Virus record (IMG/VR): IMGVR_UViG_3300045988_121885
Coordinates: 1 to 35,317 of that record
Direction: 5' to 3' (one strand)
DNA: 35,317 nucleotides
Origin: a virus
The translations under genes were made by a program, and so were the position numbers. The stretch's first letter is position 1. Each line of letters opens with the position of its first letter. Under the pieces are notes generated by a model. That model worked only from the letters and a program-made list of their open reading frames with translations, searched no databases and was not told where the DNA came from. Shown piece after piece: positions 11,394 to 22,756 of the stretch.

Positions 11394-14300
11394 TTAATTT
11401 GCTCGTCTGCGATTAAGAATTGTGATAGAATTTTGCCGTTTTTTGAAAGATAAATATTTTTGAGCGTACATTGCTATCACATCTATACTATCATCATAGG
11501 CATTGTGCGCCGTATATGAAAACGAGGTAAGGTACTTCATAAACTTGCCAAACTCTGAACCTTGCGCATATATCCCAAATTCCGGGAATACAATAGAAGA
11601 CTTTATGACAGCTTCATTATCATATATTTTATCCTCTTTATGCTTATAGCTATATACTTCCGTAATATTACAATAATCTATACCTCTTTCGTAAAGCATA
11701 CCGCGCAATAGTGTGGCAAGGCTTGTATCAGTGTTGCGCTCTATGTGCAATCGCGTAATGTGGTGCTGCTCTATTTTACGAATTATAGTAGGATATATCT
11801 TTTCCATAGGCTTCATTTCAAATATACAGTCTTTGAGATAATGTTTATCGCCTATGGGCAGACAAATAGCCATTGCTATATAGTTTGCGCCGGTACGCGC
11901 AGGGTCAAGCATAGCCCAACAGCTTTCCTCGTCTTTTTCTTCCTCAATATGTGGTATAGCCTTATATGTTAATAGATTATCATAGCTAAAAGCACAACCC
12001 TCAATAGGCATAGGCTCTTGCATATCCATAGCCATAAAAGTATTATAGTCGGCAAGTCTGTCAGCCCGAGCTTCCTCTGTGGTGTATTTATGCGGATATG
12101 TGCTTTCGTCAGTGTCCCAGTCAAGTTTAGGAACAGACACGAAAACTGCCTTATGCTGAGCATTAAACTTTGTGTATTTATTGATTTTACTCTGTTTAGC
12201 CGTATCACCGCCATATTTGCGCTTTATCGTAGACAGAAAGTCATAAATATGGTAGGTAGTGCCACTGAAAACCTCAAAACTGTTATTATCGTCATATTTT
12301 CGCTTTTTCCACTGGTCTTGATACCGCTCTATATCTTTTTCGTGCATATTGATATTGCCCTTGTCTTTTGACCGTGTAATATCATCGTAAAAGCGATATT
12401 TATATCGTCCACCGTCCACAGGGGTGTCTTTATTTGCCAATAGGAACGATGTGCCTTTAATACTTCCGTGGATAAGCAAGCGTGCCACTTGATTATTGCC
12501 ACCCTCACGCCGAACATCAAATATTTTGTCCTTATCACCCTCAAATTGAGCATAATATGGGAAAACCTTAGCATAATTAGGCTTGCACATATATTTTACC
12601 AATTTTGCGGACATATCGGTTATCAATGAGGGATTTCCAACTATTTTTAATACATCTGCGTTTATATCTATGCCAAATATATAGGATATTAGAACGGTAT
12701 CGGCATAGCTATTATGTGATACTACACCATTTGCAATGAAATTGTGCGTTTCTTCAACTTCAATGTCAACCATATCCGTTAGAGTTTCGTCAAATTCTAT
12801 GCTTTTTATCTTTTGCCATACAAAGTCATTTGAGACAACATCTTTAAGCAAACCTGTTTTTTCTGAAAATTCGTCAATCCATTGTTTTTTAAAAGATGAA
12901 GTTTTCGCCCAAGATTTATTTTTTATTTTCTTCAACTCTTTGCAATGACAAACAACGCTTTTAGGATAGTTTACATTGTTTGAATATGGCGGCATACTCT
13001 TTGAAAACAACCATTCAACTCTGTTTTTCAGATTTTCTTGCTTATGATAACAATAACAGTTTTTGTATAATTTGTTTATGAACTCATCGGGTATTGTAAG
13101 ATTGTAACAATCAAATGTTTTGCCCTCACACTTGCTTTTTCTATGACAATAATAAGAGTATATGCCACAAGTGCTTAAAAGTCTTTGTATGTCTTGTATA
13201 AGCCCCTCGTTAGCAAGCGATATTCCACAAGGGCTTTCACCTTTATTTATCCAACCGTCAGTAGCAAACATTATGCCGATAAATTTATATCTTTGTTTTA
13301 AACTCATTTCAAAAAACTGTTTAGGCAGTCTTTTGGTATAAGACAAATGATTTATAACGCCATAACGGGTAAGAACATCTGCCACTTTGCCATTTGCACT
13401 GTGTATTCTCACTTCGTACGCTTTTGAGGGGTGAGAAACACTATATGTTACGCCCCATTTATCAAGCACCGAAATAAATCTATCCAAAATTTCGTTCTTT
13501 TCTTTGATAAATCTAAATCTTGCCTGTTTGCAATGCCCATCAAAAATCATACAAGTGACAAAAAACAGTTCGTCTTCGTCAATTTCATAGCCATAATTCA
13601 ATGGCGAGCAGATTTCAAAAAGATAATCGCTAATGGTTATATCTTTACACATTTTATAACCTTTGTCGGTGTACAATCTATGCTCGGGACTGCAAATTAT
13701 CTCTTTGCCATTATTAAGCCTAATTTTGATTTGCTTTTTTTCTGTATTCCATTTATTCGTTATTCGCCTTACGACAGGTTTGTTTTCTTTCATAGAATAC
13801 ACAAAATCGCCAATATTAACATTTTTGATAGGTTTATAACCCTGTGTGGTTAAAATAGGCGTATCAGCTTTTAGGCACTTTCCATACCCGACTGGGCATT
13901 GTTTTTCAAGGTATTTCACAGTGCCGTCAAGCACCATTTTATCAGCATAATACCAAAATCCCTTAAAACAATTAAGGTTATATTTCCATACCTTGTCATT
14001 TTCAGGCATACCCCACTCCATATAAAGCGCAAAGTGTTCTATGTTGCGGAAAGCCGACAAAGCGTAAAAATTCTCGTACAATTTGCCGTATTCAGTATAA
14101 TTCTCTTGTAATTTCAGCAGCCGAGCCCTGTTTTCCTCGGTGAATTTCTCTTTTTTGAGTTTATCAGCCAAAACAGCCATTTTTTTCAGTTTATCACGCA
14201 ATGTAGGCAAAACAAATTTGCAGACATACTCAATATGCTTGCGGATTTCGTCCTCGCCCTCGTTATCACGCAACTGTGCCAAATAACCGTGTATCTGCGA

Positions 14301-14429
14301 ATGCATAGTGCGATATAAATTATCGCTGACAGCTAAAACATACTCGTCACTGTCTAAATACTTTGCATTTTTGCGCATTTCGCTAAATGCAACACAGCCT
14401 TCACGAACAATCTCGCCGATATTATCCAT
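11394..14429 (-). CDS. terL: Terminase large subunit precursor (622-aa extein plus 389-aa intein)
   Basis: The Walker A motif PVGYGK|S is split by the intein. Walker-B-like YRFYDDI, and nuclease-type acidic motifs AMLDPARTG and AYDDSIDVIAMY. Lies upstream of portal. RBS GGAGGTG 6 nt before the ATG. Confidence 0.9.
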   Translation of the reverse strand: MDNIGEIVREGCVAFSEMRKNAKYLDSDEYVLAVSDNLYRTMHSQIHGYLAQLRDNEGEDEIRKHIEYVCKFVLPTLRDKLKKMAVLADKLKKEKFTEENRARLLKLQENYTEYGKLYENFYALSAFRNIEHFALYMEWGMPENDKVWKYNLNCFKGFWYYADKMVLDGTVKYLEKQCPVGYGKCLKADTPILTTQGYKPIKNVNIGDFVYSMKENKPVVRRITNKWNTEKKQIKIRLNNGKEIICSPEHRLYTDKGYKMCKDITISDYLFEICSPLNYGYEIDEDELFFVTCMIFDGHCKQARFRFIKEKNEILDRFISVLDKWGVTYSVSHPSKAYEVRIHSANGKVADVLTRYGVINHLSYTKRLPKQFFEMSLKQRYKFIGIMFATDGWINKGESPCGISLANEGLIQDIQRLLSTCGIYSYYCHRKSKCEGKTFDCYNLTIPDEFINKLYKNCYCYHKQENLKNRVEWLFSKSMPPYSNNVNYPKSVVCHCKELKKIKNKSWAKTSSFKKQWIDEFSEKTGLLKDVVSNDFVWQKIKSIEFDETLTDMVDIEVEETHNFIANGVVSHNSYADTVLISYIFGIDINADVLKIVGNPSLITDMSAKLVKYMCKPNYAKVFPYYAQFEGDKDKIFDVRREGGNNQVARLLIHGSIKGTSFLLANKDTPVDGGRYKYRFYDDITRSKDKGNINMHEKDIERYQDQWKKRKYDDNNSFEVFSGTTYHIYDFLSTIKRKYGGDTAKQSKINKYTKFNAQHKAVFVSVPKLDWDTDESTYPHKYTTEEARADRLADYNTFMAMDMQEPMPIEGCAFSYDNLLTYKAIPHIEEEKDEESCWAMLDPARTGANYIAMAICLPIGDKHYLKDCIFEMKPMEKIYPTIIRKIEQHHITRLHIERNTDTSLATLLRGMLYERGIDYCNITEVYSYKHKEDKIYDNEAVIKSSIVFPEFGIYAQGSEFGKFMKYLTSFSYTAHNAYDDSIDVIAMYAQKYLSFKKRQNSITILNRRRAN
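12711..13877 (-). mobile_element. Class-1 intein with nested LAGLIDADG homing endonuclease, inserted in the terL P-loop
   Basis: - Cys1 (codon 13877-13875) follows GYGK.
- Block A CLKADTPILT; block B ICSPEHRLYT.
- LAGLIDADG-type motifs LFFVTCMIFDGHC and YKFIGIMFATDGWI.
- Blocks F/G MVDIEVEETHNFIANGVVSHN, with terminal Asn at codon 12713-12711 and +1 Ser.
- Removing the intein restores GYGKSYADTV. Confidence 0.9.
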
Positions 14430-14455
14430 TCATAGCACCTCCGCCAGTTTTTATT

Positions 14456-14484
14456 ATTATAGCAAATAAGCCAAACAATTTCAA
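14456..14484 (-). promoter_or_regulatory. Promoter P3: TTGAAA-17-TGcTATAAT immediately upstream of terL
   Basis: Minus strand: cacTTGAAAttgtttggcttatttgcTATAATaataaaaactggcGGAGGTGctatgaATG. Confidence 0.65.
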
Positions 14485-14490
14485 GTGTAT

Positions 14491-14534
14491 AAAAAGCGAC
14501 CGCCCAGCAGAGAGGTGTACAACTGCAGGCGGTC
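14491..14534 (-). terminator. Intrinsic terminator T2 (GACCGCC-GCAG / CTGC-GGCGGTC, then a T-tract)
   Basis: Minus strand: GACCGCCtGCAGttgtacacctctCTGCtgGGCGGTCgcTTTTTat. The stem is 7+4 bp. Confidence 0.7.
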
Positions 14535-14593
14535 AAAGAAAGGAGATAATGAAAACGTCTAAACAAAACTTAAATATCAGAGTTTTCAAATAC

Positions 14594-14622
14594 AATATAC
14601 CACATATTTTCTCATTTGTCAA
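14594..14622 (-). promoter_or_regulatory. Promoter P2: TTGACA-17-TGgTATATT
   Basis: Minus strand: ctaTTGACAaatgagaaaatatgtggTATATTgtatt. Confidence 0.6.
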
Positions 14623-14626
14623 TAGC

Positions 14627-14655
14627 AAAAAAGCAACAGCCATAATAGCCATTGC
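14627..14655 (-). terminator. Intrinsic terminator T1 (GCAATGGC / GCTGTTGC, then T6)
   Basis: Minus strand: GCAATGGCtattatgGCTGTTGCTTTTTTgc. The 8-bp stem includes two G-U pairs. Confidence 0.55.
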
Positions 14656-14690
14656 CTTTCCGCTATATCCAAAATTATTACTGTATAGCC

Positions 14691-14719
14691 ATTATATCAT
14701 ATCCATTATTCTTTGTCAA
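14691..14719 (-). promoter_or_regulatory. Promoter P1: TTGACA-17-TGaTATAAT, overlapping the 3' end of the 95-aa gene
   Basis: Minus strand: gagcTTGACAaagaataatggatatgaTATAATggc. Perfect hexamers plus an extended -10. Confidence 0.6.
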
Positions 14720-14993
14720 GCTCTAACAAAAACGCAACATTGCAAGCAATATGATACAAGTGCGGCAAGCCACTATCCTCATCAACCCCGTGTGGCTCTT
14801 TCAGCCATTTGCATATGTGCCGCATTAAAGCCGCTCTGTATCGCTTAGGGTCGACATTCTTATAACTGCCCTCGCCATATTTTTCAGCACCATGTGTCAT
14901 AACAACGCCCACAGCCTCTATTATCTCCGCAGGCACTAAATCCAACCTCGGCTTGCCACCGTCGTGCTTTAATCCGTCTGTAACAACATCCAT
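14706..14993 (-). CDS. Small nucleotide pyrophosphohydrolase-like protein (DUF5664 / dATP-dGTP diphosphohydrolase N-domain-like)
   Basis: Pattern KHDGGKPRLDLVP...GAEKYG...YRAALMRHICKW...DEDSGLPHLYHIACNVAFLLE matches my memory of that phage family. RBS GAGAGGTGG 7 nt upstream. Confidence 0.55.
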   Translation of the reverse strand: MDVVTDGLKHDGGKPRLDLVPAEIIEAVGVVMTHGAEKYGEGSYKNVDPKRYRAALMRHICKWLKEPHGVDEDSGLPHLYHIACNVAFLLELDKE

Positions 14994-15037
14994 TGTAATT
15001 CCACCTCTCTTAAATATCAGCCATAAGCCATACCGCC

Positions 15038-15067
15038 ATTATAGCACCCCGTCCCGGCGCTTGTCAA
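15038..15067 (-). promoter_or_regulatory. Promoter P0: TTGACA-18-TGcTATAAT for the 95-aa gene
   Basis: Minus strand: gggTTGACAagcgccgggacggggtgcTATAATggcgg. Confidence 0.6.
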
Positions 15068-15341
15068 CCCTTGCATAAATTCTGCATTTTTATTCATTTT
15101 CTATGCACAAGCCGGCAAAAAACAACTTTGTAAATTTTTAAAATTCGGGGGGGTAACCCGACCGCTGGCTGACCTTTTCGGAATAGGGTTCGGGGTGGTT
15201 TTCGTTCCGTGAACGCCTTTAAATAAAACGTTTTTGTGTTACAAATACGAACGATAAAGAAACAAACGCACATTTTAAACCCGCTTTATCAATTTAGCAC
15301 TTTATCGTGTTAAAGTTGATAGGTTTACTCCCTTTTATTTT

Positions 15342-15383
15342 TTTATACTTTTCTTTTATTTTTAGTTTATACTTTTCTTTTAT
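15342..15383. repeat. Two 18-bp direct repeats (tttatacttttcttttat) with 24-bp period
   Basis: Copies at 15342-15359 and 15366-15383, read directly, within an AT-rich non-coding stretch. Confidence 0.85.
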
Positions 15384-15414
15384 ATTATACTCATATAAAT
15401 ATTATATACTTGGT

Positions 15415-15448
15415 TATTGTTGTATATAGGCTTATAAAGACAACAATA
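15415..15448. repeat. 9-bp inverted repeat TATTGTTGT / ACAACAATA with 16-bp spacer
   Basis: Arms at 15415-15423 and 15440-15448. Flanking GTTATT/AATAAC extends the symmetry with an offset. Confidence 0.8.
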
Positions 15449-15480
15449 TAATAACACGGTGCAAGGCTTAATATTATGAA

Positions 15481-15492
15481 TAAATAGGCATA
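15481..15492. repeat. Left arm of the 12-bp inverted repeat TAAATAGGCATA bracketing the plus-strand cassette
   Basis: Its exact reverse complement TATGCCTATTTA lies at 17323-17334. Confidence 0.8.
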
Positions 15493-15524
15493 TAAAAATA
15501 TTTATTTGAAGATTAAAATTTTAC

Positions 15525-15553
15525 TTGACAATTATATAATATAGTGATATAAT
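15525..15553 (+). promoter_or_regulatory. Consensus sigma-A promoter TTGACA-17-TGaTATAAT for the plus-strand cassette
   Basis: Plus strand: ttacTTGACAattatataatatagtgaTATAATaaag, with an AT-rich UP-like tract upstream. Confidence 0.75.
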
Positions 15554-15586
15554 AAAGACAACGAAAGGAAAGGAGAAAAAAACAAG

Positions 15587-15703
15587 ATGAAAACGGAAGA
15601 TATTAAAAATTTGTTGCATTTGGTTGTTGAACTTCTAAAACGGTGTAAAACGGTCGACGAAGCTATAAAAGCAATCTGCAACGCTTACGACATCCACGAA
15701 TAA
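15587..15703 (+). CDS. Possible 38-aa leader ORF (MKTEDIKNLLHLVVELLKRCKTVDEAIKAICNAYDIHE)
   Basis: ATG lies 11 nt after AGGAG, which is a long spacing. Two short GC hairpins follow (15714-15745). It is below the ORF-track cut-off and may be a non-coding leader instead. Confidence 0.35.
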   Translation: MKTEDIKNLLHLVVELLKRCKTVDEAIKAICNAYDIHE

Positions 15704-15778
15704 CAAACGCCGAGCCGGGCGGCATAACCCGGCAGCCTTCGGGCTTGTTAATTAAAATAAATAAAAGAGGTTTTAAAA

Positions 15779-16165
15779 ATGAAAACAAACAACAAAAAAG
15801 CGCGCGAGAACATACGCAAATATGTTATTGCAAACTTTACCCCGGAGGGCTACACGGACAACCCGCCGCAGGAGTTCCCCGAAATAGCCCGCTTTATTTT
15901 ATCCACTTTCAGAAATGAAAAATACAGCACCCCGGAAGACTTCCATTATTATCGAAATAACGAGCTTGTAGCGTTCGCGGATTGGTGCGCGGGGCTTTGC
16001 GGTGTTCTCGATACTTGTTATTTTTATAACCGTTACGCCGTTGATGACCTCGGCGCAATTCTTAAAGAAACAGAAGAAGAAAAAGCGCGCTATACAGAAG
16101 AACAAGCCGAAAATACATTAACTTTTTTAATTTATCGCGAGTTAATAAAAGGGGCTACAGAATAA
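15779..16165 (+). CDS. Hypothetical 128-aa protein, first substantial gene of the plus-strand cassette
   Basis: RBS AAGAGG 8 nt upstream. Its stop overlaps the next start (ATAATG). No motif recognised. Confidence 0.7.
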   Translation: MKTNNKKARENIRKYVIANFTPEGYTDNPPQEFPEIARFILSTFRNEKYSTPEDFHYYRNNELVAFADWCAGLCGVLDTCYFYNRYAVDDLGAILKETEEEKARYTEEQAENTLTFLIYRELIKGATE

Positions 16166-17157
16166 TGTATAACGGCGAACAATTGGCGCAGGCGCTGACC
16201 GTTTTCGGTCTGCCCTGCGTTTTTAAAGAAATGAAACAAACCCCACGAAATACAATATATTATTTTGATTTTACGGACTGGAACAAAGTCACAGCGGGCA
16301 GGCGCAAAACAGCACTTGACCGTCTTTCACTATATGCCGAACATCAATTTAATTATATTGACAGTAATATATCACATTTTGCAATATATCACGCTGAAGA
16401 CAATTATAGTATTGTCCCGCTTTTCGAACTTGCCTTGCCTGCTGATGATACATATAAATTCATCGCGGGCATAAACGAGGACGGCGGACAAGTCAATATT
16501 TCATTAGACGGAATGACGCATGCATTAATTGCAGGTACTACCGGCAGCGGTAAAAGCGTATTTTTGAAAAGCTTTTTATATTCTTTATTGACTACCAATA
16601 GCCCGAATAAAGTAAAATGTGCTATTATAGATAAAAAACGCAGTTTGAATTATTGGAGCAGGGCGGCGCACTGTCTCAAAGTCGTTAATGATGATATTTC
16701 GGCAATAACTTTATTAAATACTTTTCAAAAAGAAATGTATAACCGATATGAAGAATTGCGGCGGCGAGGACTTGAAAAAAATATCGGGTTGTTTCCTAAG
16801 TGGGTATTGATAATTGATGAATTGGCGGATTTAATGCTGACCGAGCGCAAAACAGAAATTGAAAGTAAACTTGTTTCGCTTTGTCAGCTCGGGCGCGCTG
16901 CTGGTATTCATTGCATATTATGCACCCAGTCGCCCCGCGTTGCCGTTGTCAGTGGTTTAATTCAGGCAAATACCCCGACAAAGATTATATTTAAAACAGC
17001 GAACACGCGGGAAAGCGTGTTGTGTTTGGGTCATTCGGGAGCGGAAAAGCTGCTCGGGAATGGTGACTGCCTTATAAAACTTCCCGATAAAGTAAAAGAT
17101 ATTAGAGTACAAACGCCATTTGCAACTGATGAAGATTTCAGAAACTGTATAGAATAG
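16165..17157 (+). CDS. FtsK/SpoIIIE-family ATPase (motor domain only, no TM or gamma domain)
   Basis: Walker A LIAGTTGSGKSVFL, Walker B WVLIIDELADLM, then LGRAAGIHCILCTQSPRVAVVSGLIQANTPTKIIFKTANTRESVLCLG...GNGDCLI. This is the canonical order of FtsK motor motifs. Confidence 0.85.
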   Translation: MYNGEQLAQALTVFGLPCVFKEMKQTPRNTIYYFDFTDWNKVTAGRRKTALDRLSLYAEHQFNYIDSNISHFAIYHAEDNYSIVPLFELALPADDTYKFIAGINEDGGQVNISLDGMTHALIAGTTGSGKSVFLKSFLYSLLTTNSPNKVKCAIIDKKRSLNYWSRAAHCLKVVNDDISAITLLNTFQKEMYNRYEELRRRGLEKNIGLFPKWVLIIDELADLMLTERKTEIESKLVSLCQLGRAAGIHCILCTQSPRVAVVSGLIQANTPTKIIFKTANTRESVLCLGHSGAEKLLGNGDCLIKLPDKVKDIRVQTPFATDEDFRNCIE

Positions 17158-17168
17158 AGGTATAAAAA

Positions 17169-17285
17169 ATGATTTTTAGTGTTTTAGCTTATATTTTGGC
17201 AGTCGGTATTGGTTGTATATTCTTTGAGTGTACGAAAACAGGGCAGAAGCTATCCGATAAAATCTATAAGAAAATAATAAAATAA
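17169..17285 (+). CDS. 38-aa membrane peptide (MIFSVLAYILAVGIGCIFFECTKTGQKLSDKIYKKIIK)
   Basis: RBS AGAGG 8 nt upstream. Hydrophobic N-terminus and basic C-terminus. Followed directly by a terminator. Confidence 0.5.
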   Translation: MIFSVLAYILAVGIGCIFFECTKTGQKLSDKIYKKIIK

Positions 17286-17293
17286 TGCTTTTG

Positions 17294-17323
17294 ACCGTCC
17301 GCGGCTCGTGGGCGGTTCTTTTT
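17294..17323 (+). terminator. Intrinsic terminator closing the plus-strand cassette
   Basis: ACCGTCCGC ggctc GTGGGCGGT (9 bp including wobbles) followed by TCTTTTT. Confidence 0.6.
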
Positions 17324-17334
17324 ATGCCTATTTA
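17323..17334. repeat. Right arm of the 12-bp inverted repeat (TATGCCTATTTA)
   Basis: Reverse complement of 15481-15492. It overlaps the terminator T-tract. Confidence 0.8.
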
Positions 17335-17450
17335 AAACTATGCTTTAAAATGCTTTGTATTGCGCTTTAATATTCACTTTAGTATTTATATTCCCAAATA
17401 ATAAAAAAGCCGTACAGCCCCAAAAGAAACGATATTTTTAATATTTTAAA

Positions 17451-17491
17451 GCAAAAAGAAACTGCCGAAAGTGTTTTTAAACTCTCGACAG
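17451..17491 (-). terminator. Intrinsic terminator after the recombinase operon (weaker on the plus strand)
   Basis: Minus strand: CTGTCGAGAGTttaaaaacACTTTCGGCAGTTTCTTTTTGC. The stem is 11 bp with two G-U pairs. Confidence 0.7.
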
Positions 17492-17497
17492 TCTTTT

Positions 17498-17968
17498 TTA
17501 TTGTTCCGATGTGGCTTGTAGTTCGGCTTGCAGTCTCTCAAATACTGCTTGCCGGCTGATGTGATGTCTTCTTGCTATTTCCGATATATCGCCCCATATC
17601 GCTTTACCCTCTCTACGCATAAGAGCGGCTTTTTTTATTTCCTCGCATAGTTCCGCTTTTGGCGGTCGGGTTTTAATATTACAATAAGCATTTAAAGTAT
17701 ATCTCACATTATACCGAGATATATTTAATTTATGGGCTATCATATCAACATTATGCAGTCCGCTTTCCCACAAGGCTTTTATTTGCTCCTTGTTGGCTGT
17801 GCCGTCGTCGCTTACCGCTCTGCCTCGCCTTATTATTCCGCCGTTCGCCTTTATGGTATTGACAACATAATATCGCGATACTCCTACAATATCGGCGGTT
17901 CTTGTTACGGTATAGCCCTTATAATAACACATCATAATGTCGTCAATTTGATTTTGCGATAATTTCAT
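17498..17968 (-). CDS. DNA-binding protein with three HTH-like units
   Basis: HTH-like segments are GYTVTRTADIVGVSRYYVVNTIK, HNVDMIAHKLNISRYNVRYTL and ISEIARRHHISRQAVFERL. ATGA overlap with the upstream gene. Confidence 0.6.
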   Translation of the reverse strand: MKLSQNQIDDIMMCYYKGYTVTRTADIVGVSRYYVVNTIKANGGIIRRGRAVSDDGTANKEQIKALWESGLHNVDMIAHKLNISRYNVRYTLNAYCNIKTRPPKAELCEEIKKAALMRREGKAIWGDISEIARRHHISRQAVFERLQAELQATSEQ

Positions 17969-18228
17969 TCGTTGCCCTCATTGTTTGCAAAGTGATATCT
18001 TTCGTTTAATTCTACGGCGGTACGAGCGCAGTCGGCATATTTAGTATATATTTTTATTTGGTCGCTTAATGCCATTTTGTCTGCATTTTCTATACATTTT
18101 GTTAAAGTTTTACTTGCTCCGCGTATATAAGTCAGCAAATTTAAATACTCGTCCAACATTGCATTTATAATTATTTGCCGCTCTAAAAGTGTCTCATACA
18201 GTTCCTTGTAGTCAATTTCATTATCCAT
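17965..18228 (-). CDS. Hypothetical 87-aa helical protein
   Basis: The start is moved to MDNEIDYKELY (ATG at 18228-18226), 9 nt after GGGGG. The TTG start in the ORF track lacks an RBS. Confidence 0.55.
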   Translation of the reverse strand: MDNEIDYKELYETLLERQIIINAMLDEYLNLLTYIRGASKTLTKCIENADKMALSDQIKIYTKYADCARTAVELNERYHFANNEGNE

Positions 18229-18301
18229 TGTTTTTGCCCCCTGAATTTGTTTCGCCGTAATCTTCAAGCCAGTAAACGCCTATAACCGTATTCCGCCCAT
18301 A

Positions 18302-18478
18302 TCAGGTTTTAACTACTTCATCGCGACGATTTATTATATAGCCCTTGTTGCGTAAATGGTATATAATTCCGCTTAACCTTGTCGCGCCGTAGAGTTCTAT
18401 TGCCTGCATTGAGGTTAATTCTCTGCCTGATAATAAATGCTCTAATATGGCTTTTGTTTGCGTGTTGTCGCGTACCAT
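18302..18478 (-). CDS. 58-aa winged-helix protein (HTH_39-like)
   Basis: Hand translation: MVRDNTQTKAILEHLLSGRELTSMQAIELYGATRLSGIIYHLRNKGYIINRRDEVVKT. The start overlaps the recombinase stop (TAATG). Below the ORF-track size cut-off. Confidence 0.6.
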   Translation of the reverse strand: MVRDNTQTKAILEHLLSGRELTSMQAIELYGATRLSGIIYHLRNKGYIINRRDEVVKT

Positions 18479-19056
18479 TATTCTGCCCCCTTTAATATTC
18501 TACTTACCGTGGCTATGCTTATATTTAATATATTGGCTATGTCTCTGTAACTCTTATGCTCGGATTTCAAATTAAACACTTGTTGCCGAATTTCGTCTGA
18601 TATTGTTTTCGGTCTGCCGAGTGTAACACCCTGTTCCTTTTTGGCTTGTAAGGCTTGCTTTGTCCTATCGGCTATCAAGTCGCGCTCGAATTGTGCAAAG
18701 CTTCCCATAATGTTAAACACAAGTGCTGACATTGCGTCTGTTCCGCTCTCGCCACCAATGGAAAGATTTTCTTTAATAAATATAACTTTAGCTTTTTTTG
18801 TCTTAACAATAAAGTTTGTCGTATCTATTAAGTCCTGCATTGACCTTGCCATTCGGCTCATACTTTCAAAATAGACTTCATCACCTTGTTGCAGTTTTTC
18901 AAGCATTTTTTCAAATTCTTCACGATTACAAGCCTTTTTTGTACCTGATATTTTTTCCTCAAAAATCATATCCAAATTATAATCTTTAAGTATAAATTCC
19001 TGCCTTGTAAACTCCTGCTTGTCTGCCGTTGATACTCGCATATACCCGTATTTCAT
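18478..19056 (-). CDS. Small serine recombinase (resolvase/invertase family, 192 aa)
   Basis: N-terminal MKYGYMRVSTADKQ holds the catalytic Ser region. Also SRMARS, GSFAQFERDLIADRT and a C-terminal HTH SYRDIANILNISIATVSRILK. The start is set to the ATG at 19056 because the longer listed ORF runs through its own promoter. Confidence 0.85.
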   Translation of the reverse strand: MKYGYMRVSTADKQEFTRQEFILKDYNLDMIFEEKISGTKKACNREEFEKMLEKLQQGDEVYFESMSRMARSMQDLIDTTNFIVKTKKAKVIFIKENLSIGGESGTDAMSALVFNIMGSFAQFERDLIADRTKQALQAKKEQGVTLGRPKTISDEIRQQVFNLKSEHKSYRDIANILNISIATVSRILKGAE

Positions 19057-19087
19057 TTTCATTTCCCTTTCTTGCGATATAAATAAA

Positions 19088-19132
19088 AGCCTATAATATA
19101 TTACTTTTCTAACCGCAATTATATTATAAGCC
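19088..19132. repeat. Imperfect dyad aGCcTATAATATA (19 bp) TATATTATAaGCc over the recombinase promoter and leader
   Basis: Perfect 9-bp arms at 19092-19100 and 19120-19128. The right arm overlaps the -10 box. Confidence 0.7.
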
Positions 19133-19151
19133 TTTATGTAACATTTGTCAA
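19123..19151 (-). promoter_or_regulatory. Consensus promoter TTGACA-17-TATAAT for the recombinase operon
   Basis: Minus strand: ttgcTTGACAaatgttacataaaggctTATAATataatt. Confidence 0.7.
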
Positions 19152-19167
19152 GCAAAATATTTAATCT

Positions 19168-19338
19168 TTAAATGATTATTTCCAATAAAAAATAGGCAAA
19201 GGCAAAATCAACCATTGCTTGTGATAGAAAAAATGCCGTAATATAAGCGGGCGCTTTAGTCTTAAAGCCCATTACAGATAATGCCAAGCCCATAATGCCT
19301 ATTGTTATGCCAAATATAGCTAATATTGTTTTAAGCAT
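19168..19338 (-). CDS. 56-aa two-TM membrane protein
   Basis: Hand translation: MLKTILAIFGITIGIMGLALSVMGFKTKAPAYITAFFLSQAMVDFAFAYFLLEIII. The ATG lies 1 nt after the TerS-like stop. Below the ORF-track cut-off. Confidence 0.5.
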   Translation of the reverse strand: MLKTILAIFGITIGIMGLALSVMGFKTKAPAYITAFFLSQAMVDFAFAYFLLEIII

Positions 19339-19339
19339 T

Positions 19340-19972
19340 TCATTCCCCTTTCTTGTCTAACAGAGCTTTCATATTTGCTAATTCTTTTAGTTCATATCGG
19401 AATTGCCCCTCGTTCAATGCGTCACTTGCCTTATCGAGTATACTTTCCGCGTCGCCTATTTGTACCAATTCGTGACCGTAGCCGCCCTTGCTCTTTAACC
19501 GTAGCTTGCTTGTTGACTCTTTCTGTTGACCTTGTTCGGCTGCTGAAAGAGTAAAGTTTATTAAATCGGCTTCAATATCACCGCATACTTGCTTGACATC
19601 ATCAGCCGCATTGTTGCGTAAATGCTCAAATGCCGATACACTTATCCTTGCAAATGCCAAAAATTCAAGTTTATTCGGCGTATATGATATAGCCATATTT
19701 ATATATGCCATAAGTGATAGATAAGCATTATAGATATTATAAATATCGTCTGCCGACAGTTTAAGGGCAATATCGTTTGTGACCGTGCGTTCCTGCCGAA
19801 GTATTTCGCCAAGTTTTACTCTTACGCGGTATTCAAGGGTATCAGCTAAATACTTTTCGCCTTGCCTTGATTTATTCATAATATCCGAACGGCATATCTC
19901 AATAAATTCTTCAAGCTGTGACTTTATTGTTTCAACTTTAGCTTGATATTTTGTCAATACTTCATTATCCAT
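19340..19972 (-). CDS. Terminase small subunit-like protein (tentative)
   Basis: The central segment TPNKLEFLAFARISVSAFEHLRNN resembles the HTH of Terminase_2-type TerS. The C-terminal KLRLKSKGGYG resembles the TerS tail. Start at the ATG after GGTAGGTGA. It is not adjacent to terL. Confidence 0.45.
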   Translation of the reverse strand: MDNEVLTKYQAKVETIKSQLEEFIEICRSDIMNKSRQGEKYLADTLEYRVRVKLGEILRQERTVTNDIALKLSADDIYNIYNAYLSLMAYINMAISYTPNKLEFLAFARISVSAFEHLRNNAADDVKQVCGDIEADLINFTLSAAEQGQQKESTSKLRLKSKGGYGHELVQIGDAESILDKASDALNEGQFRYELKELANMKALLDKKGE

Positions 19973-19973
19973 A

Positions 19974-20438
19974 TTATTCACCTACCAACTGCACATACTG
20001 ACCGTAGCTTAAATAAGTGCCGTGCAATTTATTATATTCCGCTCGTTCTTTTTCTATCATTTGCAAAGACTTAAAAGCCTTGCCTTTAGCTTTCTTTGCA
20101 CGCGTAGGACGTGCAGATTTATATAATTCCAATTGTGCGAGGTCGCGCCTTTTCCGTGCGTCCTCTTTGCATATCGGGCATTTACGGTTATTGTTGTTAG
20201 TATAAAATTCCCTGCCGCAATCGTTACACGGTTTATGCTTTATATTATCCTCTATTAACTTATTTATAACTGCTATATCACTTACTACTATTACGGCGCT
20301 ATATCCTAAACTGTCGCATATTTCGTTTATTGACATATCCTTTGCATAATAAAGCCGTGTAATGGTTCTTTGCCGGGCGCTTTTTACTAAGTCTAATAGC
20401 CGTGATATTCCGCTATCGTCTATAATTGCCTTTTCCAT
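19974..20438 (-). CDS. Sigma-70 region-4-like HTH plus zinc-ribbon protein (possible late regulator)
   Basis: ARQRTITRLYYAKDMSINEICDSLGYS is r4-like. CNDCG...CPIC forms a Zn ribbon. The C-terminal LSYGQYV motif is one I recall from proteins encoded upstream of terS in Firmicutes phages. Confidence 0.55.
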   Translation of the reverse strand: MEKAIIDDSGISRLLDLVKSARQRTITRLYYAKDMSINEICDSLGYSAVIVVSDIAVINKLIEDNIKHKPCNDCGREFYTNNNNRKCPICKEDARKRRDLAQLELYKSARPTRAKKAKGKAFKSLQMIEKERAEYNKLHGTYLSYGQYVQLVGE

Positions 20439-21799: not shown

Positions 21800-22756
21800 C
21801 TACCAAATGCCGTCATCGTTGTACTCGCCACCACCGATACAATATTCGTACTGCCGAGGATGTGTCTTCTTTAATCGTAACCAACGGCTTTCCTTTTCAA
21901 GGTGACACCCAAATCCGCAAAACATACACCCCGTGCGCTTGCACCCTGTTGTAGTCAGTTTCCCGTTGCAGTCCTCAAACATGGGCTGTTGCTCAAATAT
22001 TTCGTTCCCTGGCTTGATTATTTTGGATTCATCAACAATATCGCCGTAAACGCTTGCTATTGACAGGCTGTCCCGCTTTATGTACTGAAGAACATCCTGC
22101 TCTGTCCAAAAGGACATGGGCTTGCTCATAGGGCGTTTACTGTCGAAAGCATTACAGCCCGTTTTTAGCCAAGCATCAGTTCTGCGGTTACTCTCTTCAG
22201 CCAAGAGAGCTATAATTGGTTTTTTCTCCTTTTCCTTTTGGCGAATGGGCTTTTCCTTCATTTCGAGACAGCACCAATTTGATATGTTAAAATCGACATT
22301 TAGAAGAGGCGCATATTTAACATAACGCTTCCGAAATTGAGAAGGCTCACCATTTGTTTTCAAACCTTTTATTTTCTTGAGCCCAAATTCCGCCCCCTTT
22401 TTGCCATAATAAATCGTTTCCGCCACATCCTTGCTAATTATCGGATACCCGTATTTTTTGATAACCTCGTCAAATCTCATTTTGGGGTGAAGAATTGTAA
22501 CATTCTCAAAGGTTTTTACAAACTTCCGAATTTCGGGATATTCCAATCCCGTGTCAACGAAAACCGCCTCTATATTCGGATACAACTCTCGGACAATATG
22601 GAGCAACACCGTGCTGTCCTTGCCGCCCGAAAAGCTCACATAAACGCCGTCTGTGCCGTACTCCTTTACCCATTCTCGGATACGCGTTTTAGTCATCCCG
22701 ACCTTTACTTCAAGTGGCATAGCTTGAAAATATTTCAAATCTTCTCTTGAAGGCAA
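21800..22756 (-). CDS. PAPS-reductase / PP-loop ATPase family protein with a C-terminal Cys cluster
   Basis: PP-loop VSFSGGKDSTVLLH. C-terminal TGCKRTGCMFCGFGCHLE. TTG start 7 nt after GGGAGGG. Confidence 0.8.
   Translation of the reverse strand: MPSREDLKYFQAMPLEVKVGMTKTRIREWVKEYGTDGVYVSFSGGKDSTVLLHIVRELYPNIEAVFVDTGLEYPEIRKFVKTFENVTILHPKMRFDEVIKKYGYPIISKDVAETIYYGKKGAEFGLKKIKGLKTNGEPSQFRKRYVKYAPLLNVDFNISNWCCLEMKEKPIRQKEKEKKPIIALLAEESNRRTDAWLKTGCNAFDSKRPMSKPMSFWTEQDVLQYIKRDSLSIASVYGDIVDESKIIKPGNEIFEQQPMFEDCNGKLTTTGCKRTGCMFCGFGCHLEKESRWLRLKKTHPRQYEYCIGGGEYNDDGIW

What the first reader, a model, noticed from the sequence alone, without database searches (positions are those of the whole stretch)
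14430..19339. A ~4.9-kb accessory island interrupts the packaging module between the TerS-like gene and terL
In most tailed phages terS directly precedes terL. Here the TerS-like gene ends at 19340 and terL starts at 14429. Between them lie:
- a 56-aa two-TM protein;
- a self-promoted serine recombinase operon with three HTH-type proteins;
- a convergent plus-strand cassette with an FtsK-like ATPase;
- a ~580-bp non-coding region rich in repeats;
- a nucleotide-pyrophosphohydrolase-like gene with its own promoter;
- two promoter-terminator mini-units.
The plus-strand genes also look more GC-rich by eye (codons such as GCG CGC GAG, CCG CCG CAG) than their neighbours; I did not compute this. The layout suggests a laterally acquired, possibly recombinase-mobilised, island.
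Basis: partly seen in the sequence, partly recalled or inferred. Interest (0 to 1): 0.65.

Follow-up and report, generated by a model that had tools for sequence, protein, structure and literature searches.

The report
Conserved accessory gene region before terL
The 4.9-kb stretch between a terminase-small-subunit-like gene and the large terminase gene is real, but it is a long-standing, constantly reshuffled accessory region shared by a whole lineage of uncultured gut phages, not a recently inserted foreign island.

Summary
Four perfect sigma-70 promoters lie in the block; six lie in the whole window against 0.08 expected.

The "laterally acquired, recombinase-mobilised island" reading is not supported:
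- Block GC is 37.6% against 38.3% for the window, and codon usage is ordinary.
- All 18 related contigs examined carry the same architecture. They span four sublineages, down to about 67% identity in the 210-aa protein.
- That architecture is: TerS-like gene; promoter, small serine recombinase, variable cargo, tri-HTH protein, terminator; a convergent cassette ending in an FtsK-like ATPase; a conserved C-rich non-coding element; terL with its own promoter.
- No empty site and no flanking att-like repeats were found.

Cargo genes between the anchors come and go (dGTPase, Pyr_excise, YopX, Lar, small ORFs). Recombinase alleles are swapped between backbones.

The 210-aa protein is TerS-like only indirectly, through fold hits and family members that match PHROG 606. 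Its distant homologues are never next to a terL in the contexts I could read.

The phage looks non-integrating: circular map, one coding strand, no integrase, never on a contig over 50 kb.

Best reading: a hyperplastic early/accessory region with conserved anchors. The functions of the anchors are inferred, not shown.

The parts
19340..19972 (-). 210-aa all-helical, TerS-like protein, paired with the upstream 154-aa sigma-region-4-like protein (19974-20438)
   Evidence: - No direct family hit.
- AF2 model has pLDDT 70.
- BFVD fold hits: 'DNA-packaging protein small subunit' at E 4e-4, plus several weak 'Terminase small subunit' hits.
- 4 of 63 family members hit PHROG 606, a TerS family. P0090 hits at E 7e-6 over the conserved core.
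19168..19338 (-). 56-aa small hydrophobic (two-segment) protein, co-transcribed with the 210-aa gene
   Evidence: Translation. Present at the same place in L001-L010 and L011 (58 aa) and in L037. No family hit.
19123..19151 (-). Perfect sigma-70-type promoter of the recombinase operon. It sits in a roughly 60-nt stretch (19122-19181) that is an imperfect inverted copy of the FtsK-cassette promoter region.
   Evidence: (I1, I5). A 12/12 promoter is conserved at this position in L011, L037 and L038.
18478..19056 (-). Small serine recombinase (192 aa) of the resolvase/invertase type: N-terminal catalytic domain and C-terminal HTH
   Evidence: - Pfam Resolvase E 1e-32 and PHROG 125.
- Best PDB relatives are Gin, Sin, Tn3 and gamma-delta resolvase.
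- RVST and SRxxR motifs are present in all alleles.
18302..18478 (-). 58-aa winged-helix (HTH_39) protein; variable cargo (80 aa in most relatives, absent in L011)
   Evidence: Pfam HTH_39 E 2e-11.
17965..18267 (-). 87-100-aa ORF of unknown function; cargo found only in the window and L001
   Evidence: No family hit. Absent from L002-L010.
17498..17968 (-). 156-aa protein with three HTH-like repeats; conserved last gene of the recombinase operon
   Evidence: - HTH_7, HTH_23 and HTH_28 hits, and a Cbp1-like hit.
- Restricted to this lineage.
- 38-41% identical (global alignment; 40-46% in local BLAST alignments) in L011, L037 and L038, at the same position.
17459..17494 (-). Intrinsic terminator of the recombinase operon
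   Evidence: 14-bp stem followed by a T run.
17293..17317 (+). Intrinsic terminator of the plus-strand cassette
   Evidence: 11-bp stem with 7 GC pairs, followed by a T run.
17169..17285 (+). 38-aa hydrophobic peptide downstream of the FtsK-like gene
   Evidence: Sequence. Called as a gene in relatives. Weak homologues in L037 and L038.
16165..17157 (+). FtsK/SpoIIIE-like ATPase (330 aa): motor domain only, with no TM anchor and no gamma domain; conserved last large gene of the reverse cassette
   Evidence: - Pfam FtsK_SpoIIIE E 5e-29 and PHROG 1358 E 2e-56.
- Walker A GTTGSGKS and Walker B hhhhDE are present in all sublineages.
- 54-70% identical across sublineages.
15779..16165 (+). 128-aa protein (PHROG 11100, unknown function) whose stop overlaps the FtsK start; variable cargo
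   Evidence: Not detectably homologous to the L011 gene at the same position.
15587..15703 (+). 38-aa ORF, first gene after the plus-strand promoter
   Evidence: Sequence. Called as a gene in relatives.
15525..15553 (+). Perfect sigma-70-type promoter of the FtsK cassette
   Evidence: Conserved as 12/12 in L011, L037 and L038.
15120..15215 (-). Conserved C-rich non-coding element (CACCCCnAACCCTA ... GrTTACyCCCCC ... TAAAAAT). It always lies upstream of terL and in the same orientation.
   Evidence: Conserved between the window lineage and L011, although the rest of the intergenic DNA does not align. Not a stable RNA structure (z +0.6 and +1.2).
15335..15382 (.). 24-nt tandem duplication inside an AT-rich spacer
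   Evidence: D10, 88% identity.
14706..15067 (-). dGTPase moron: perfect promoter (15067-15038) plus a 95-aa dATP/dGTP diphosphohydrolase N-domain protein (14706-14993)
   Evidence: Pfam E 2e-26 and PHROG 801. Absent in L005 by a deletion running from one promoter's -10 element to the next promoter's -10 element, and also absent in L011.
14624..14719 (-). Mini-unit 1: perfect promoter (14719-14691), a roughly 60-nt transcript, a 19-bp hairpin and a T run
   Evidence: MFE -23.1, z -5.0.
14486..14622 (-). Mini-unit 2: 11/12 promoter (14622-14594), a roughly 95-nt transcript and a GC-rich hairpin terminator
   Evidence: MFE -29.2, z -5.0.
14456..14484 (-). terL's own promoter (TTGAAA-17-TATAAT with extended -10)
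   Evidence: Equivalent promoters precede terL in L011 and L038.
11394..14429 (-). terL (1011 aa), carrying a 389-aa intein with a LAGLIDADG domain in the P-loop
   Evidence: Pfam Intein_splicing, LAGLIDADG_3 and Terminase-T7_RNaseH-like; PHROG 38; boundaries.

Best explanation
The interval 14430-19339 is a lineage-wide, hyperplastic accessory region. It belongs to an uncultured, apparently non-integrating siphovirus-like tailed phage with a roughly 40-43 kb circular map, seen in gut-type metagenomes. It is not a recent insertion.

Structure: the region consists of self-contained transcription units read by the host's primary-sigma RNA polymerase.
1. A forward operon: consensus promoter, small serine recombinase, variable cargo, tri-HTH DNA-binding protein, terminator.
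2. A convergent operon: consensus promoter, variable small genes, FtsK-like ATPase, small hydrophobic peptide, terminator.
3. A conserved C-rich non-coding element.
4. Optional morons such as the dGTP/dATP pyrophosphohydrolase.
5. Tandem promoter/terminator mini-units.
6. terL's own promoter.

Shown: the anchors (recombinase first, tri-HTH last, FtsK last, C-rich element, terL promoter) are kept across four sublineages. The cargo between them is gained and lost, and recombinase alleles are exchanged.

Inferred, with lower confidence:
- The units are early or constitutive.
- The recombinase acts as a resolvase-type enzyme on a site next to its own promoter, keeping the circular replicating genome monomeric or helping to circularise it. 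The tri-HTH protein would serve as its DNA-binding accessory or regulator.
- The cargo is host-takeover or anti-defence material.
- The FtsK-like protein is a dsDNA translocase whose substrate is unknown.

The 210-aa protein is probably a diverged gp3-type small terminase. In this family that gene is habitually uncoupled from terL, which starts its own operon.
For: Synteny:
- The same architecture is present in L001-L010 and L016-L020 at 88-99% nucleotide identity.
- It is also present in L038 (210-aa protein 79% identical), L037 (71%) and L011 (68%).

Variable cargo:
- The dGTPase is absent in L005 and L011.
- A 77/78-aa ORF present in most relatives is missing here.
- Pyr_excise, YopX, DUF6440 and Lar-like genes lie inside the recombinase operon of L037 and L038. 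One to six extra genes sit upstream of FtsK.

Promoters:
- 12/12 promoters are conserved at both operon starts in all four sublineages.

Composition:
- It is indistinguishable from the rest of the genome.

Recombinase:
- It is an intact small serine recombinase.
- Its alleles are incongruent with the backbone. The window and L003 recombinases are 50% identical although their 210-aa proteins are 100% identical and FtsK 98%. L003 is 79% identical to L011, and the window is 78% identical to L037.

Non-integrating lifestyle:
- All genes are on one strand except the FtsK cassette, and there is no integrase or CI-type module.
- None of the 78 and 77 indexed blocks reaches a contig over 50 kb.
- The pattern-seeded scans of 185,579 species genomes (two short peptide patterns per query) gave no hit.
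- A 77-nt terminal overlap gives a 39,650-bp circle.
- Small serine recombinases are a known feature of non-integrating plasmid-prophage siphoviruses of Firmicutes (PMC8026635).

TerS-like identity of the 210-aa protein.
Against: - No recombination site has been identified. The candidate motifs (ATAGGCWTATAA, and the inverted repeat at 19080-19140) are weak and AT-rich.
- No partition genes (ParA/ParM) were seen, so a plasmid state is unproven.
- Timing of expression is only inferred from promoter sequence.
- The FtsK-like protein's role is unknown here and in the 395 other phage records that carry one.
- The TerS assignment rests on indirect links, and no distant homologue is adjacent to a terL.
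- The related contigs come from a handful of metagenome projects and may over-represent one population.
Confidence: 0.7

Rival explanations
1. One reading: a laterally acquired island, possibly moved by its serine recombinase, that recently split an originally contiguous terS-terL pair.
For: The content is accessory-type and a recombinase is present. The units carry their own promoters.
Against: - There is no GC or codon-usage difference.
- The block is present in every relative down to about 67% identity in the 210-aa protein.
- No empty site, flanking direct repeat or second context was found.
- Small resolvase/invertase-type enzymes do not normally mobilise 5-kb cassettes.
- Distant family members are also uncoupled from terL.
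Confidence: 0.04
2. The 210-aa protein is not the working small terminase. It would be a TerS-fold or merely helical protein of the replication/DNA-modification region. On this view nothing interrupts a packaging module: the block is simply the junction between the end of the early/middle genes and the start of the late operon at terL.
For: - The window protein has no direct Pfam, PHROG, NCBIfam or PDB hit.
- There is no Foldseek PDB hit.
- In L014, L024/25, L026 and L039/40 the homologue lies among helicase, primase, methylase, PAPS-reductase or glycosyltransferase genes, with no terL within 2.5-4 kb.
- terL has its own promoter.
Against: - BFVD fold hits with probability 1.0 go to a 'DNA-packaging protein small subunit', with several weaker hits to 'Terminase small subunit'.
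- Family members match PHROG 606 (TerS) over the conserved core, and two have weak GP3_package hits.
- No other TerS candidate is detectable in the window.
- The upstream sigma-region-4-like gene mimics the late-activator-then-terS order of Firmicutes siphoviruses. That comparison rests on my own knowledge.
Confidence: 0.3
3. A Hin-like invertible segment. The roughly 60-nt imperfect inverted repeats at 15496-15554 and 19122-19181 would be crossover sites. The recombinase would flip the 3.6-kb segment that holds both convergent operons.
For: - The top-scoring inverted repeat in the block brackets exactly the two operons (I1 and I5).
- The same holds in L011 (I1).
- The recombinase's best PDB relative is Gin invertase, and PHROG 125 is named 'DNA invertase'.
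Against: - All 18 contigs show one orientation.
- Most of the repeat identity comes from the two consensus promoters and their A/T-rich upstream regions.
- Inversion would have no obvious regulatory consequence, because both promoters face inward and terminators sit in the middle.
- The NCBIfam Mpi-invertase score is 88 against a cutoff of 272.
Confidence: 0.06
4. A maintenance module of a plasmid-like or carrier-state prophage. The resolvase would resolve multimers, and the FtsK-like ATPase with its small partners would move or segregate the phage genome, for example into daughter cells or forespores.
For: - The genome is non-integrating and circular.
- Small serine recombinases are typical of Firmicutes plasmid-prophages (PMC8026635).
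- The reverse-strand cassette has a constitutive-looking consensus promoter.
- FtsK-like genes are common in phages of spore formers: 268 Bacillus phage records.
Against: - No repressor, antirepressor, ParA/ParM or plasmid replicon features were seen.
- The FtsK-like protein lacks a TM anchor and a gamma domain.
- There are no data on any plasmid state.
Confidence: 0.12
5. The conserved C-rich element is the packaging or terminus site (cos or pac). The FtsK cassette would then be a leading-end, first-expressed 'pre-early' unit next to the genome end.
For: - The element is the only intergenic sequence conserved between the window lineage and L011.
- It is oriented and always lies upstream of terL.
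- It is not an RNA structure.
- The cassette reads inward from that side from a perfect promoter.
Against: - There are no data on the ends of the virion DNA.
- Contig ends do not coincide with the element.
- A circular assembly is equally compatible with headful packaging from a pac site inside the TerS-like gene.
- The element could instead be a late-promoter or activator site.
Confidence: 0.1

Closest known systems
Phage morons and hyperplastic regions (HK97/lambda morons; plasticity regions of T4-like phages) - from my own knowledge of the literature
   Same: - Independent promoter-gene-terminator units lie between conserved modules.
- Genes show presence/absence polymorphism among close relatives (dGTPase, 77-aa ORF, Pyr_excise, YopX, Lar).
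- The content is of the accessory or host-takeover type.
   Different: - There is no compositional deviation.
- The region has conserved anchor genes (recombinase, tri-HTH, FtsK-like) and a fixed convergent two-operon layout.
- It sits between a TerS-like gene and terL.
Small serine recombinases of the resolvase/invertase group (Gin, Hin, Sin, Tn3/gamma-delta resolvase)
   Same: It is 192 aa, with an N-terminal catalytic domain carrying the RVST serine and SRxxR, and a C-terminal HTH. PDB matches reach E 4e-17 to 2e-13.
   Different: - No res site or invertible segment has been demonstrated.
- It is co-transcribed with a lineage-specific tri-HTH protein.
- Alleles and catalytic domains are swapped between otherwise near-identical phages.
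Small serine recombinases of non-integrating plasmid-prophages (phiCD38-2; Bacillus cereus group plasmid-prophages; PMC8026635), and the small serine integrase of Ralstonia filamentous phages (RSM3 hit; PMC3816273)
   Same: It is a roughly 190-200-aa serine recombinase serving as the only recombinase, or one of few, of a phage that is not found integrated. It is 34-35% identical to the RSM-type enzymes.
   Different: No ParA/ParM partition pair was seen. No attP/attB or integrated copy was found. The phage may be simply virulent.
Phage FtsK/SpoIIIE-like proteins (PHROG 1358; cluster J mycobacteriophages such as Omega and Thibault; many Bacillus phages)
   Same: It is a stand-alone FtsK motor domain with Walker A and B motifs. 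It is 39-41% identical over 70% of its length to the mycobacteriophage proteins. Function is unknown there too.
   Different: - It is short (330 aa), with a novel N-terminal region of about 90 aa.
- It is always the last large gene of a reverse-strand cassette facing a recombinase operon.
- It is followed by a 38-aa hydrophobic peptide.
gp3-type small terminases (Pfam GP3_package, PHROG 606)
   Same: The conserved core (P-x-K-x-E/Q-F-x-x-F-x-x-I ... RLK-x-K-G-G-x-GH) aligns with PHROG 606 positions 63-167 in family members. The fold resembles virome proteins annotated as small terminase.
   Different: - It carries a roughly 95-aa N-terminal helical extension.
- The window protein itself has no direct HMM hit.
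- It is not adjacent to terL in any context examined.
P1 Cre/loxP placed near pac (from my own knowledge; not checked in the paper library)
   Same: A site-specific recombinase gene lies just downstream of the presumed packaging-initiation gene in a non-integrating phage. That position could put its site inside the terminal redundancy of the first headful and so aid circularisation.
   Different: The enzyme is a serine, not a tyrosine, recombinase. No lox-like site is known, nor a pac site or redundancy length. This is an analogy only.

Membership tests
Small serine recombinase (resolvase/invertase) | N-terminal catalytic domain with a nucleophilic serine and conserved arginines | tested here: met
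   Pfam Resolvase E 1e-32. The YMRVST and SRMAR motifs are present in the window protein, with equivalents in all alleles. PDB matches to Gin, Sin and gamma-delta resolvase.
Small serine recombinase (resolvase/invertase) | C-terminal HTH DNA-binding domain and an overall size of about 180-210 aa | tested here: met
   HTH_38 and HTH_7 hits at residues 180-222 of the long ORF. The protein is 192 aa from the ATG downstream of the promoter.
Small serine recombinase (resolvase/invertase) | Cognate res or crossover sites near the gene | tested here: inconclusive
   An inverted repeat at 19080-19140 overlaps the promoter. The ATAGGCWTATAA motif has 33 matches against 13 expected, and the best ones lie in the block's intergenic DNA. 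There is no functional or comparative proof.
DNA invertase subgroup (Hin/Gin/Cin/Mpi) | An invertible segment found in both orientations, flanked by inverted sites | tested here: not met
   Inverted repeats exist, but all 18 contigs show one orientation. The Mpi model scores 88 against a cutoff of 272.
Large serine integrase | More than 400 aa, with recombinase and zinc-ribbon/coiled-coil domains; attP next to the gene; integrated prophages | tested here: not met
   The protein is 192 aa and has only partial catalytic-domain hits to XisF and CcrA/B. No integrated copies were found.
FtsK/SpoIIIE translocase | RecA-like motor domain with Walker A and Walker B | tested here: met
   Pfam FtsK_SpoIIIE E 5e-29. 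GTTGSGKS and VLIIDE are conserved.
FtsK/SpoIIIE translocase | N-terminal membrane anchor and C-terminal gamma (KOPS/SRS-reading) winged helix | tested here: not met
   No FtsK_gamma or TM-domain family is among the Pfam or NCBIfam hits. The match covers only the motor region, residues about 90-329.
Small terminase (gp3-type; PF16677, PHROG 606) | Direct profile match of the protein | tested here: not met
   No hit at E <= 0.01 in Pfam, PHROGs or NCBIfam, and none by PDB sequence or profile search.
Small terminase (gp3-type; PF16677, PHROG 606) | Homology through intermediate sequences, and fold similarity | tested here: met
   - 4 of 63 family members hit PHROG 606, with a best E of 1.3e-6.
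- P0090 (E 4e-8 to the query) hits at 7e-6 over the core.
- 2 of 63 have weak GP3_package hits.
- BFVD hits go to annotated small terminases.
Small terminase (gp3-type; PF16677, PHROG 606) | Gene adjacent to, or co-transcribed with, terL | tested here: not met
   The gene is 4.9 kb from terL here and 4.5 to over 8 kb away in the sublineages. No terL lies within 2.5-4 kb in L014, L024/25 or L039.
Small terminase (gp3-type; PF16677, PHROG 606) | Ring oligomer that binds pac/cos DNA and stimulates TerL | not testable with these tools
   Only a monomer model was made.
Moron (autonomous accessory transcription unit) | Own promoter and terminator | tested here: met
   The FtsK cassette has its own promoter and terminator, and so does the recombinase operon. 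The dGTPase has its own promoter. The mini-units are promoter plus hairpin.
Moron (autonomous accessory transcription unit) | Present in some close relatives and absent in others | tested here: met
   This holds for cargo genes (dGTPase, 77-aa ORF, the 87-100-aa ORF, HTH_39, Pyr_excise, YopX, Lar). It does not hold for the anchors.
Moron (autonomous accessory transcription unit) | Atypical nucleotide composition | tested here: not met
Genomic island / site-specifically mobilised element | Empty site in relatives, flanking direct repeats (att), foreign composition | tested here: not met
   No empty site among the 18 contigs. No flanking direct repeats were seen. Composition is ordinary.

The most novel reading that the evidence does not exclude
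The conserved set may form a previously undescribed DNA-handling module of non-integrating phages, tied to the packaging start. The set is: small serine recombinase, tri-HTH protein, a facing FtsK-like ATPase cassette, and the oriented C-rich element upstream of terL. Two examples of what it could do:
- A Cre/lox-like circularisation and multimer-resolution system, placed just downstream of pac so that its site falls in the terminal redundancy.
- A leading-end, first-expressed cassette whose translocase helps bring in or position the phage genome.
Probability: 0.1. Interest if true: 0.7.

Novelty: new member of a known kind. Interest (0 to 1): 0.35.

Why it matters
- It corrects a tempting misreading. 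A block of recombinase plus accessory genes between packaging genes need not be a mobile island.
- It defines a tidy natural example of a phage plasticity region: fixed anchor genes and consensus host-type promoters between which cargo is exchanged. The cargo includes a restriction-alleviation-like gene (Lar), DNA repair and nucleotide-pool genes.
- It shows that in one family of gp3-like small-terminase homologues the gene is routinely uncoupled from terL. That matters for automated annotation and for predicting packaging strategy in virome data.
- The anchors (recombinase, tri-HTH, FtsK-like) are conserved yet unexplained. They are reasonable targets once a host is found.

Tried and rejected
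- Megablast of the region and tblastn of the 210-aa protein against 50,697 phage records gave no match. TerL's best phage hits are only 20-24% identical, so no cultured relative was available for synteny.
- Rfam at gathering thresholds and a tRNA scan of the window found nothing.
- PDB sequence and profile searches and Foldseek against PDB gave only noise for the 210-aa protein.
- The search for related loci failed with the distant family alignment, which had no conserved stretch. It found nothing in IMG/VR with the single distant members P0068 and P0071.
- Two genome-contig scans, one with 210-aa patterns and one with TerL patterns, found no prophage.
- The look-up of P0066 landed on a 1.2-kb contig and told me nothing.
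- Other 'Bacteriophage sp.' records with FtsK-like hits carry the domain inside 900-1000-aa proteins and share no other gene with the block, so they were uninformative for context.
- PADLOC matched only generic FtsK/HerA-type ATPase models (SspH C-terminus, mad8) and identified no complete defence system.
- The AF2 model of the tri-HTH protein was too poor to search (pLDDT 63, pTM 0.36), so no fold search was run on it.
- The C-rich element as a structured RNA was rejected (z > 0).
- The paper on an FtsK_gamma-TerS fusion (PMC8190038) concerns a different domain and does not apply here.

Full report
**What is in the interval.** All genes below are on the minus strand unless noted.

| Coordinates | Feature |
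|---|---|
| 19974-20438 | 154-aa sigma-region-4-like protein |
| 19340-19972 | 210-aa protein |
| 19168-19338 | 56-aa hydrophobic protein |
| 19151-19123 | Perfect TTGACA-17-TATAAT promoter |
| 18478-19056 | 192-aa small serine recombinase |
| 18302-18478 | 58-aa HTH_39 protein |
| 17965-18267 | 87-100-aa ORF with no family hit |
| 17498-17968 | 156-aa protein with three HTH-like repeats |
| 17494-17459 | Terminator |

Facing this operon, on the plus strand:

| Coordinates | Feature |
|---|---|
| 15525-15553 | Perfect promoter |
| 15587-15703 | 38-aa ORF |
| 15779-16165 | 128-aa protein (PHROG 11100) |
| 16165-17157 | 330-aa FtsK/SpoIIIE-like ATPase |
| 17169-17285 | 38-aa hydrophobic peptide |
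| 17293-17317 | Terminator |

Between the plus-strand promoter and terL:
- a 593-nt stretch with no credible gene;
- a perfect promoter (15067-15038) driving a 95-aa dATP/dGTP diphosphohydrolase-domain protein (14706-14993);
- two promoter-to-hairpin mini-units (P14719 and P14622), whose hairpins fold with z = -5 against shuffles;
- terL's own 11/12 promoter (14484-14456).

A strict scan finds six perfect 12/12 promoters in the window against 0.08 expected. Four of them are inside the block. These are real, non-random features.

**What is not confirmed.** The plus-strand genes are 40.9% GC, the block is 37.6% and the window is 38.3%. Individual genes elsewhere range from 29 to 50%. The codon-usage distance of the block from the rest (0.22) is smaller than that of 65% of random gene sets of the same size. 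There is no compositional sign of foreign origin.

**Relatives.** No cultured phage is close. Megablast and tblastn with the 210-aa protein find nothing, and TerL's best hits are 20-24% identical.

Metagenome and IMG/VR contigs fill the gap. Fifteen contigs (L001-L010, L016-L020) encode the same or a 97-99% identical 210-aa protein, and all carry the same block at 88-99% nucleotide identity. Their early regions, by contrast, are strongly mosaic.

Three further sublineages keep the same layout:
- L038 (210-aa protein 79% identical): recombinase, Pyr_excise, 164-aa tri-HTH. Facing them are a 49-aa ORF, FtsK-like and five more ORFs, then 777 nt of non-coding DNA, then terL.
- L037 (71%): seven small ORFs; then recombinase, Pyr_excise, YopX, DUF6440, a 58-aa ORF, a Lar-like gene and the tri-HTH. 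Facing them are FtsK-like and at least six ORFs.
- L011 (68%; about 71% nucleotide identity): a 58-aa TM protein, recombinase and tri-HTH. Facing them are FtsK-like and two ORFs, then 870 nt of non-coding DNA, then terL.

Perfect promoters sit at the start of both operons in all four sublineages. L038 also has tandem perfect promoters before terL.

No empty site, no flanking direct repeats and no second genomic context for the block were found.

**Anchors and cargo.** The conserved parts are:
- the recombinase slot, first gene of the forward operon;
- the tri-HTH protein, last gene of that operon, 38-41% identical across sublineages in global alignment (40-46% in local BLAST alignments) and found nowhere else;
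- the FtsK-like ATPase, 54-70% identical, with Walker A and B intact;
- terL's promoter;
- an oriented C-rich element (window 15120-15215, minus strand: CACCCCnAACCCTA ... GrTTACyCCCCC ... TAAAAAT).

The C-rich element is the only intergenic sequence that still aligns between the window lineage and L011. It does not fold as RNA better than shuffles, so a DNA-level role is more likely: a late-promoter or activator site, or a packaging site.

Everything between the anchors varies:
- The dGTPase is missing in L011. In L005 it is missing through a deletion that runs exactly from the -10 element of P15067 to the -10 element of P14719.
- A 77/78-aa ORF present in most relatives is absent here.
- HTH_39 and the 87-100-aa ORF are replaced elsewhere by Pyr_excise, YopX, DUF6440 and Lar-like genes.
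- The gene preceding FtsK is not homologous between sublineages.

The recombinase is exchanged independently of the backbone. The window and L003 phages share a 100% identical 210-aa protein and a 98% identical FtsK, yet their recombinases are only 50% identical. The L003 allele is 79% identical to that of the most distant sublineage, L011. The window allele is 78% identical to L037's. L038 carries a third type, 35-38% identical to all the others.

Between the window and L003 the swap covers only the catalytic-domain coding part (window 19053-18643). The promoter and the C-terminal HTH coding part stay about 94% identical.

**Is the 210-aa protein a small terminase?**

Direct evidence is negative:
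- No Pfam, PHROG, NCBIfam or PDB hit.
- Nothing from Foldseek against PDB.

Indirect evidence is positive:
- The AF2 model (pLDDT 70) matches BFVD entries annotated 'DNA-packaging protein small subunit' (E 4e-4, probability 1.0), with several weaker 'Terminase small subunit' hits.
- An exhaustive HMMER search found 68 relatives. Four of the 63 aligned hit PHROG 606, 'terminase small subunit'.
- One of them, P0090, matches the query at E 4e-8 and PHROG 606 at E 7e-6, over exactly the conserved core.
- Two members give weak GP3_package hits.
- No other TerS candidate is detectable in the window.

Against this stands the gene's context elsewhere. In every distant context I could read, the homologue lies at the end of a replication/DNA-modification gene run, with no terL within 2.5-4 kb. 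These contexts are L014, L024/25, L026 and L039/40. In L039 the homologue is followed by one small gene and then a convergent reverse-strand cassette, much as here. In L014 the pair of 154-aa-like and 210-aa-like genes is kept together.

I put the TerS assignment at roughly 50-65%. If it is right, uncoupling from terL is a family trait rather than the result of an insertion here.

**Lifestyle.** Whole-genome neighbourhoods show every gene on one strand except the FtsK cassette. Lysis genes run straight into early genes with no integrase or CI-type module.
- Among 78 indexed blocks for the 210-aa protein and 77 for the endolysin, none lies on a contig over 50 kb.
- Pattern-seeded scans of one genome per 185,579 species, with 210-aa and TerL patterns, found no prophage.
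- One IMG/VR contig has a 77-nt exact terminal overlap, which gives a 39,650-bp circular map.

The phage is therefore either virulent or extrachromosomal, and the 192-aa enzyme is its only recombinase.

That enzyme is a standard small serine recombinase, closest to Gin, Sin, Tn3 and gamma-delta resolvase. It falls below the cutoff of the Mpi-invertase model. Such enzymes are a listed feature of non-integrating plasmid-prophage siphoviruses of Firmicutes (PMC8026635). A small serine recombinase also serves as integrase in Ralstonia filamentous phages (PMC3816273; hits).

**Mechanism.**

Shown:
- a two-operon convergent layout under consensus host-type promoters with terminators;
- conserved anchors and variable cargo;
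- an intact catalytic recombinase and an intact ATPase.

Inferred:
- These units are expressed early or constitutively by host RNA polymerase.
- The recombinase acts as a resolvase on a site near its own promoter. An inverted repeat at 19080-19140 overlaps the -10 element and the 5' UTR, and an ATAGGCWTATAA-like motif recurs in the block's intergenic DNA. This would keep a circular replicating genome monomeric or help circularise it.
- The tri-HTH protein is its accessory or regulatory DNA-binding partner.
- The cargo serves host takeover or anti-defence.

The FtsK-like protein is a dsDNA-translocase-type motor without an anchor or gamma domain. 395 phage records carry relatives, mostly annotated only as FtsK/SpoIIIE-like proteins or DNA translocases with no specific role, so I cannot go beyond 'translocase of unknown substrate'.

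**Alternatives considered.**
- An invertible segment bounded by the roughly 60-nt inverted repeats that contain the two promoters. This is disfavoured because all 18 contigs show one orientation and inversion would change nothing obvious.
- A plasmid-maintenance module. This is possible, but no partition genes were seen.
- A genome-end or pre-early cassette with the C-rich element as cos. This is untestable without data on the DNA ends.

**Verdict.** The interpretation as a recently acquired, recombinase-mobilised island is not. What is there is a conserved, internally plastic accessory region with anchor genes of unknown function, in a novel uncultured phage lineage. It is a new member of a known kind of feature (phage plasticity/moron regions) and of modest interest.

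Noticed in passing
window 12711-13877 (inside terL, 11394-14429, minus strand): terL carries a 389-aa intein (residues 185-573) with a LAGLIDADG domain, inserted in the P-loop (GYGK|C...HN|S). Relatives show three states of the same site: no intein (622 aa), a mini-intein lacking the endonuclease (776 aa; window 12873-13574 absent), and the full intein (1011 aa). This is a population snapshot of intein gain and decay.
   Followed up: partly
window 30401-30373, 11385-11358, and the four sites in the block: Six perfect TTGACA-16/18-TATAAT promoters occur in 35 kb against 0.08 expected. One lies between terL and the 66-aa zinc-finger/portal genes, and one at the start of the early region. The phage appears to rely heavily on consensus host-type promoters, even in front of late genes.
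   Followed up: partly
window 18643-19053 compared with L003 10920-11351: Only the catalytic-domain coding part of the recombinase is replaced between phages that are otherwise near-identical. The promoter and the C-terminal HTH part stay about 94% identical. Recombinase alleles are incongruent with the backbone across sublineages.
   Followed up: partly
window 14700-15034 compared with L005: L005 lacks the dGTPase gene through a deletion whose ends fall just after the -10 elements of two successive consensus promoters. This suggests that the repeated promoters act as recombination points for gain and loss of cassettes.
   Followed up: partly
window 15120-15215; L011 14905-14985: An oriented C-rich non-coding element is conserved across sublineages whose other intergenic DNA no longer aligns. 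It always lies upstream of terL and is not RNA-structured. It is a candidate late-promoter/activator site or packaging site.
   Followed up: partly
window 19974-20438 and 19340-19972; L014 1438-2608: The 154-aa protein (sigma-region-4/YlxM-like HTH plus a CxxC...CxxC motif) and the 210-aa protein stay adjacent in a relative only 54% identical. They may work as a pair.
   Followed up: no
L019 and L034 (IMGVR_UViG_3300045988_129909): The two ends of this 39,727-nt contig overlap by exactly 77 nt, which gives a circular 39,650-bp map. The break happens to fall inside the recombinase gene.
   Followed up: yes
window 15426, 15484, 17320(-), 19124(-), 19083(-): The motif ATAGGCWTATAA has 33 matches with up to 2 mismatches against 13 expected, and no shuffle reached 33. 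Four of the five best matches lie in the block's intergenic DNA, one of them overlapping the -10 element of the recombinase promoter. It could be an operator or a recombinase site, or just AT-rich promoter context.
   Followed up: partly
L039 6001-10843: A distant member of the 210-aa family, one that matches PHROG 606, sits after glycosyltransferase/nucleotidyltransferase genes. It is followed by one small gene and then a convergent reverse-strand cassette of at least 11 small genes. This echoes the layout in the window.
   Followed up: no
window 23471-23923 and 21800-22756: The HNH endonuclease and PAPS-reductase-like genes upstream are themselves present/absent or truncated among close relatives. 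The whole stretch from the replication genes to the 101-aa gene is mosaic, in contrast to the stable anchors of the block.
   Followed up: no
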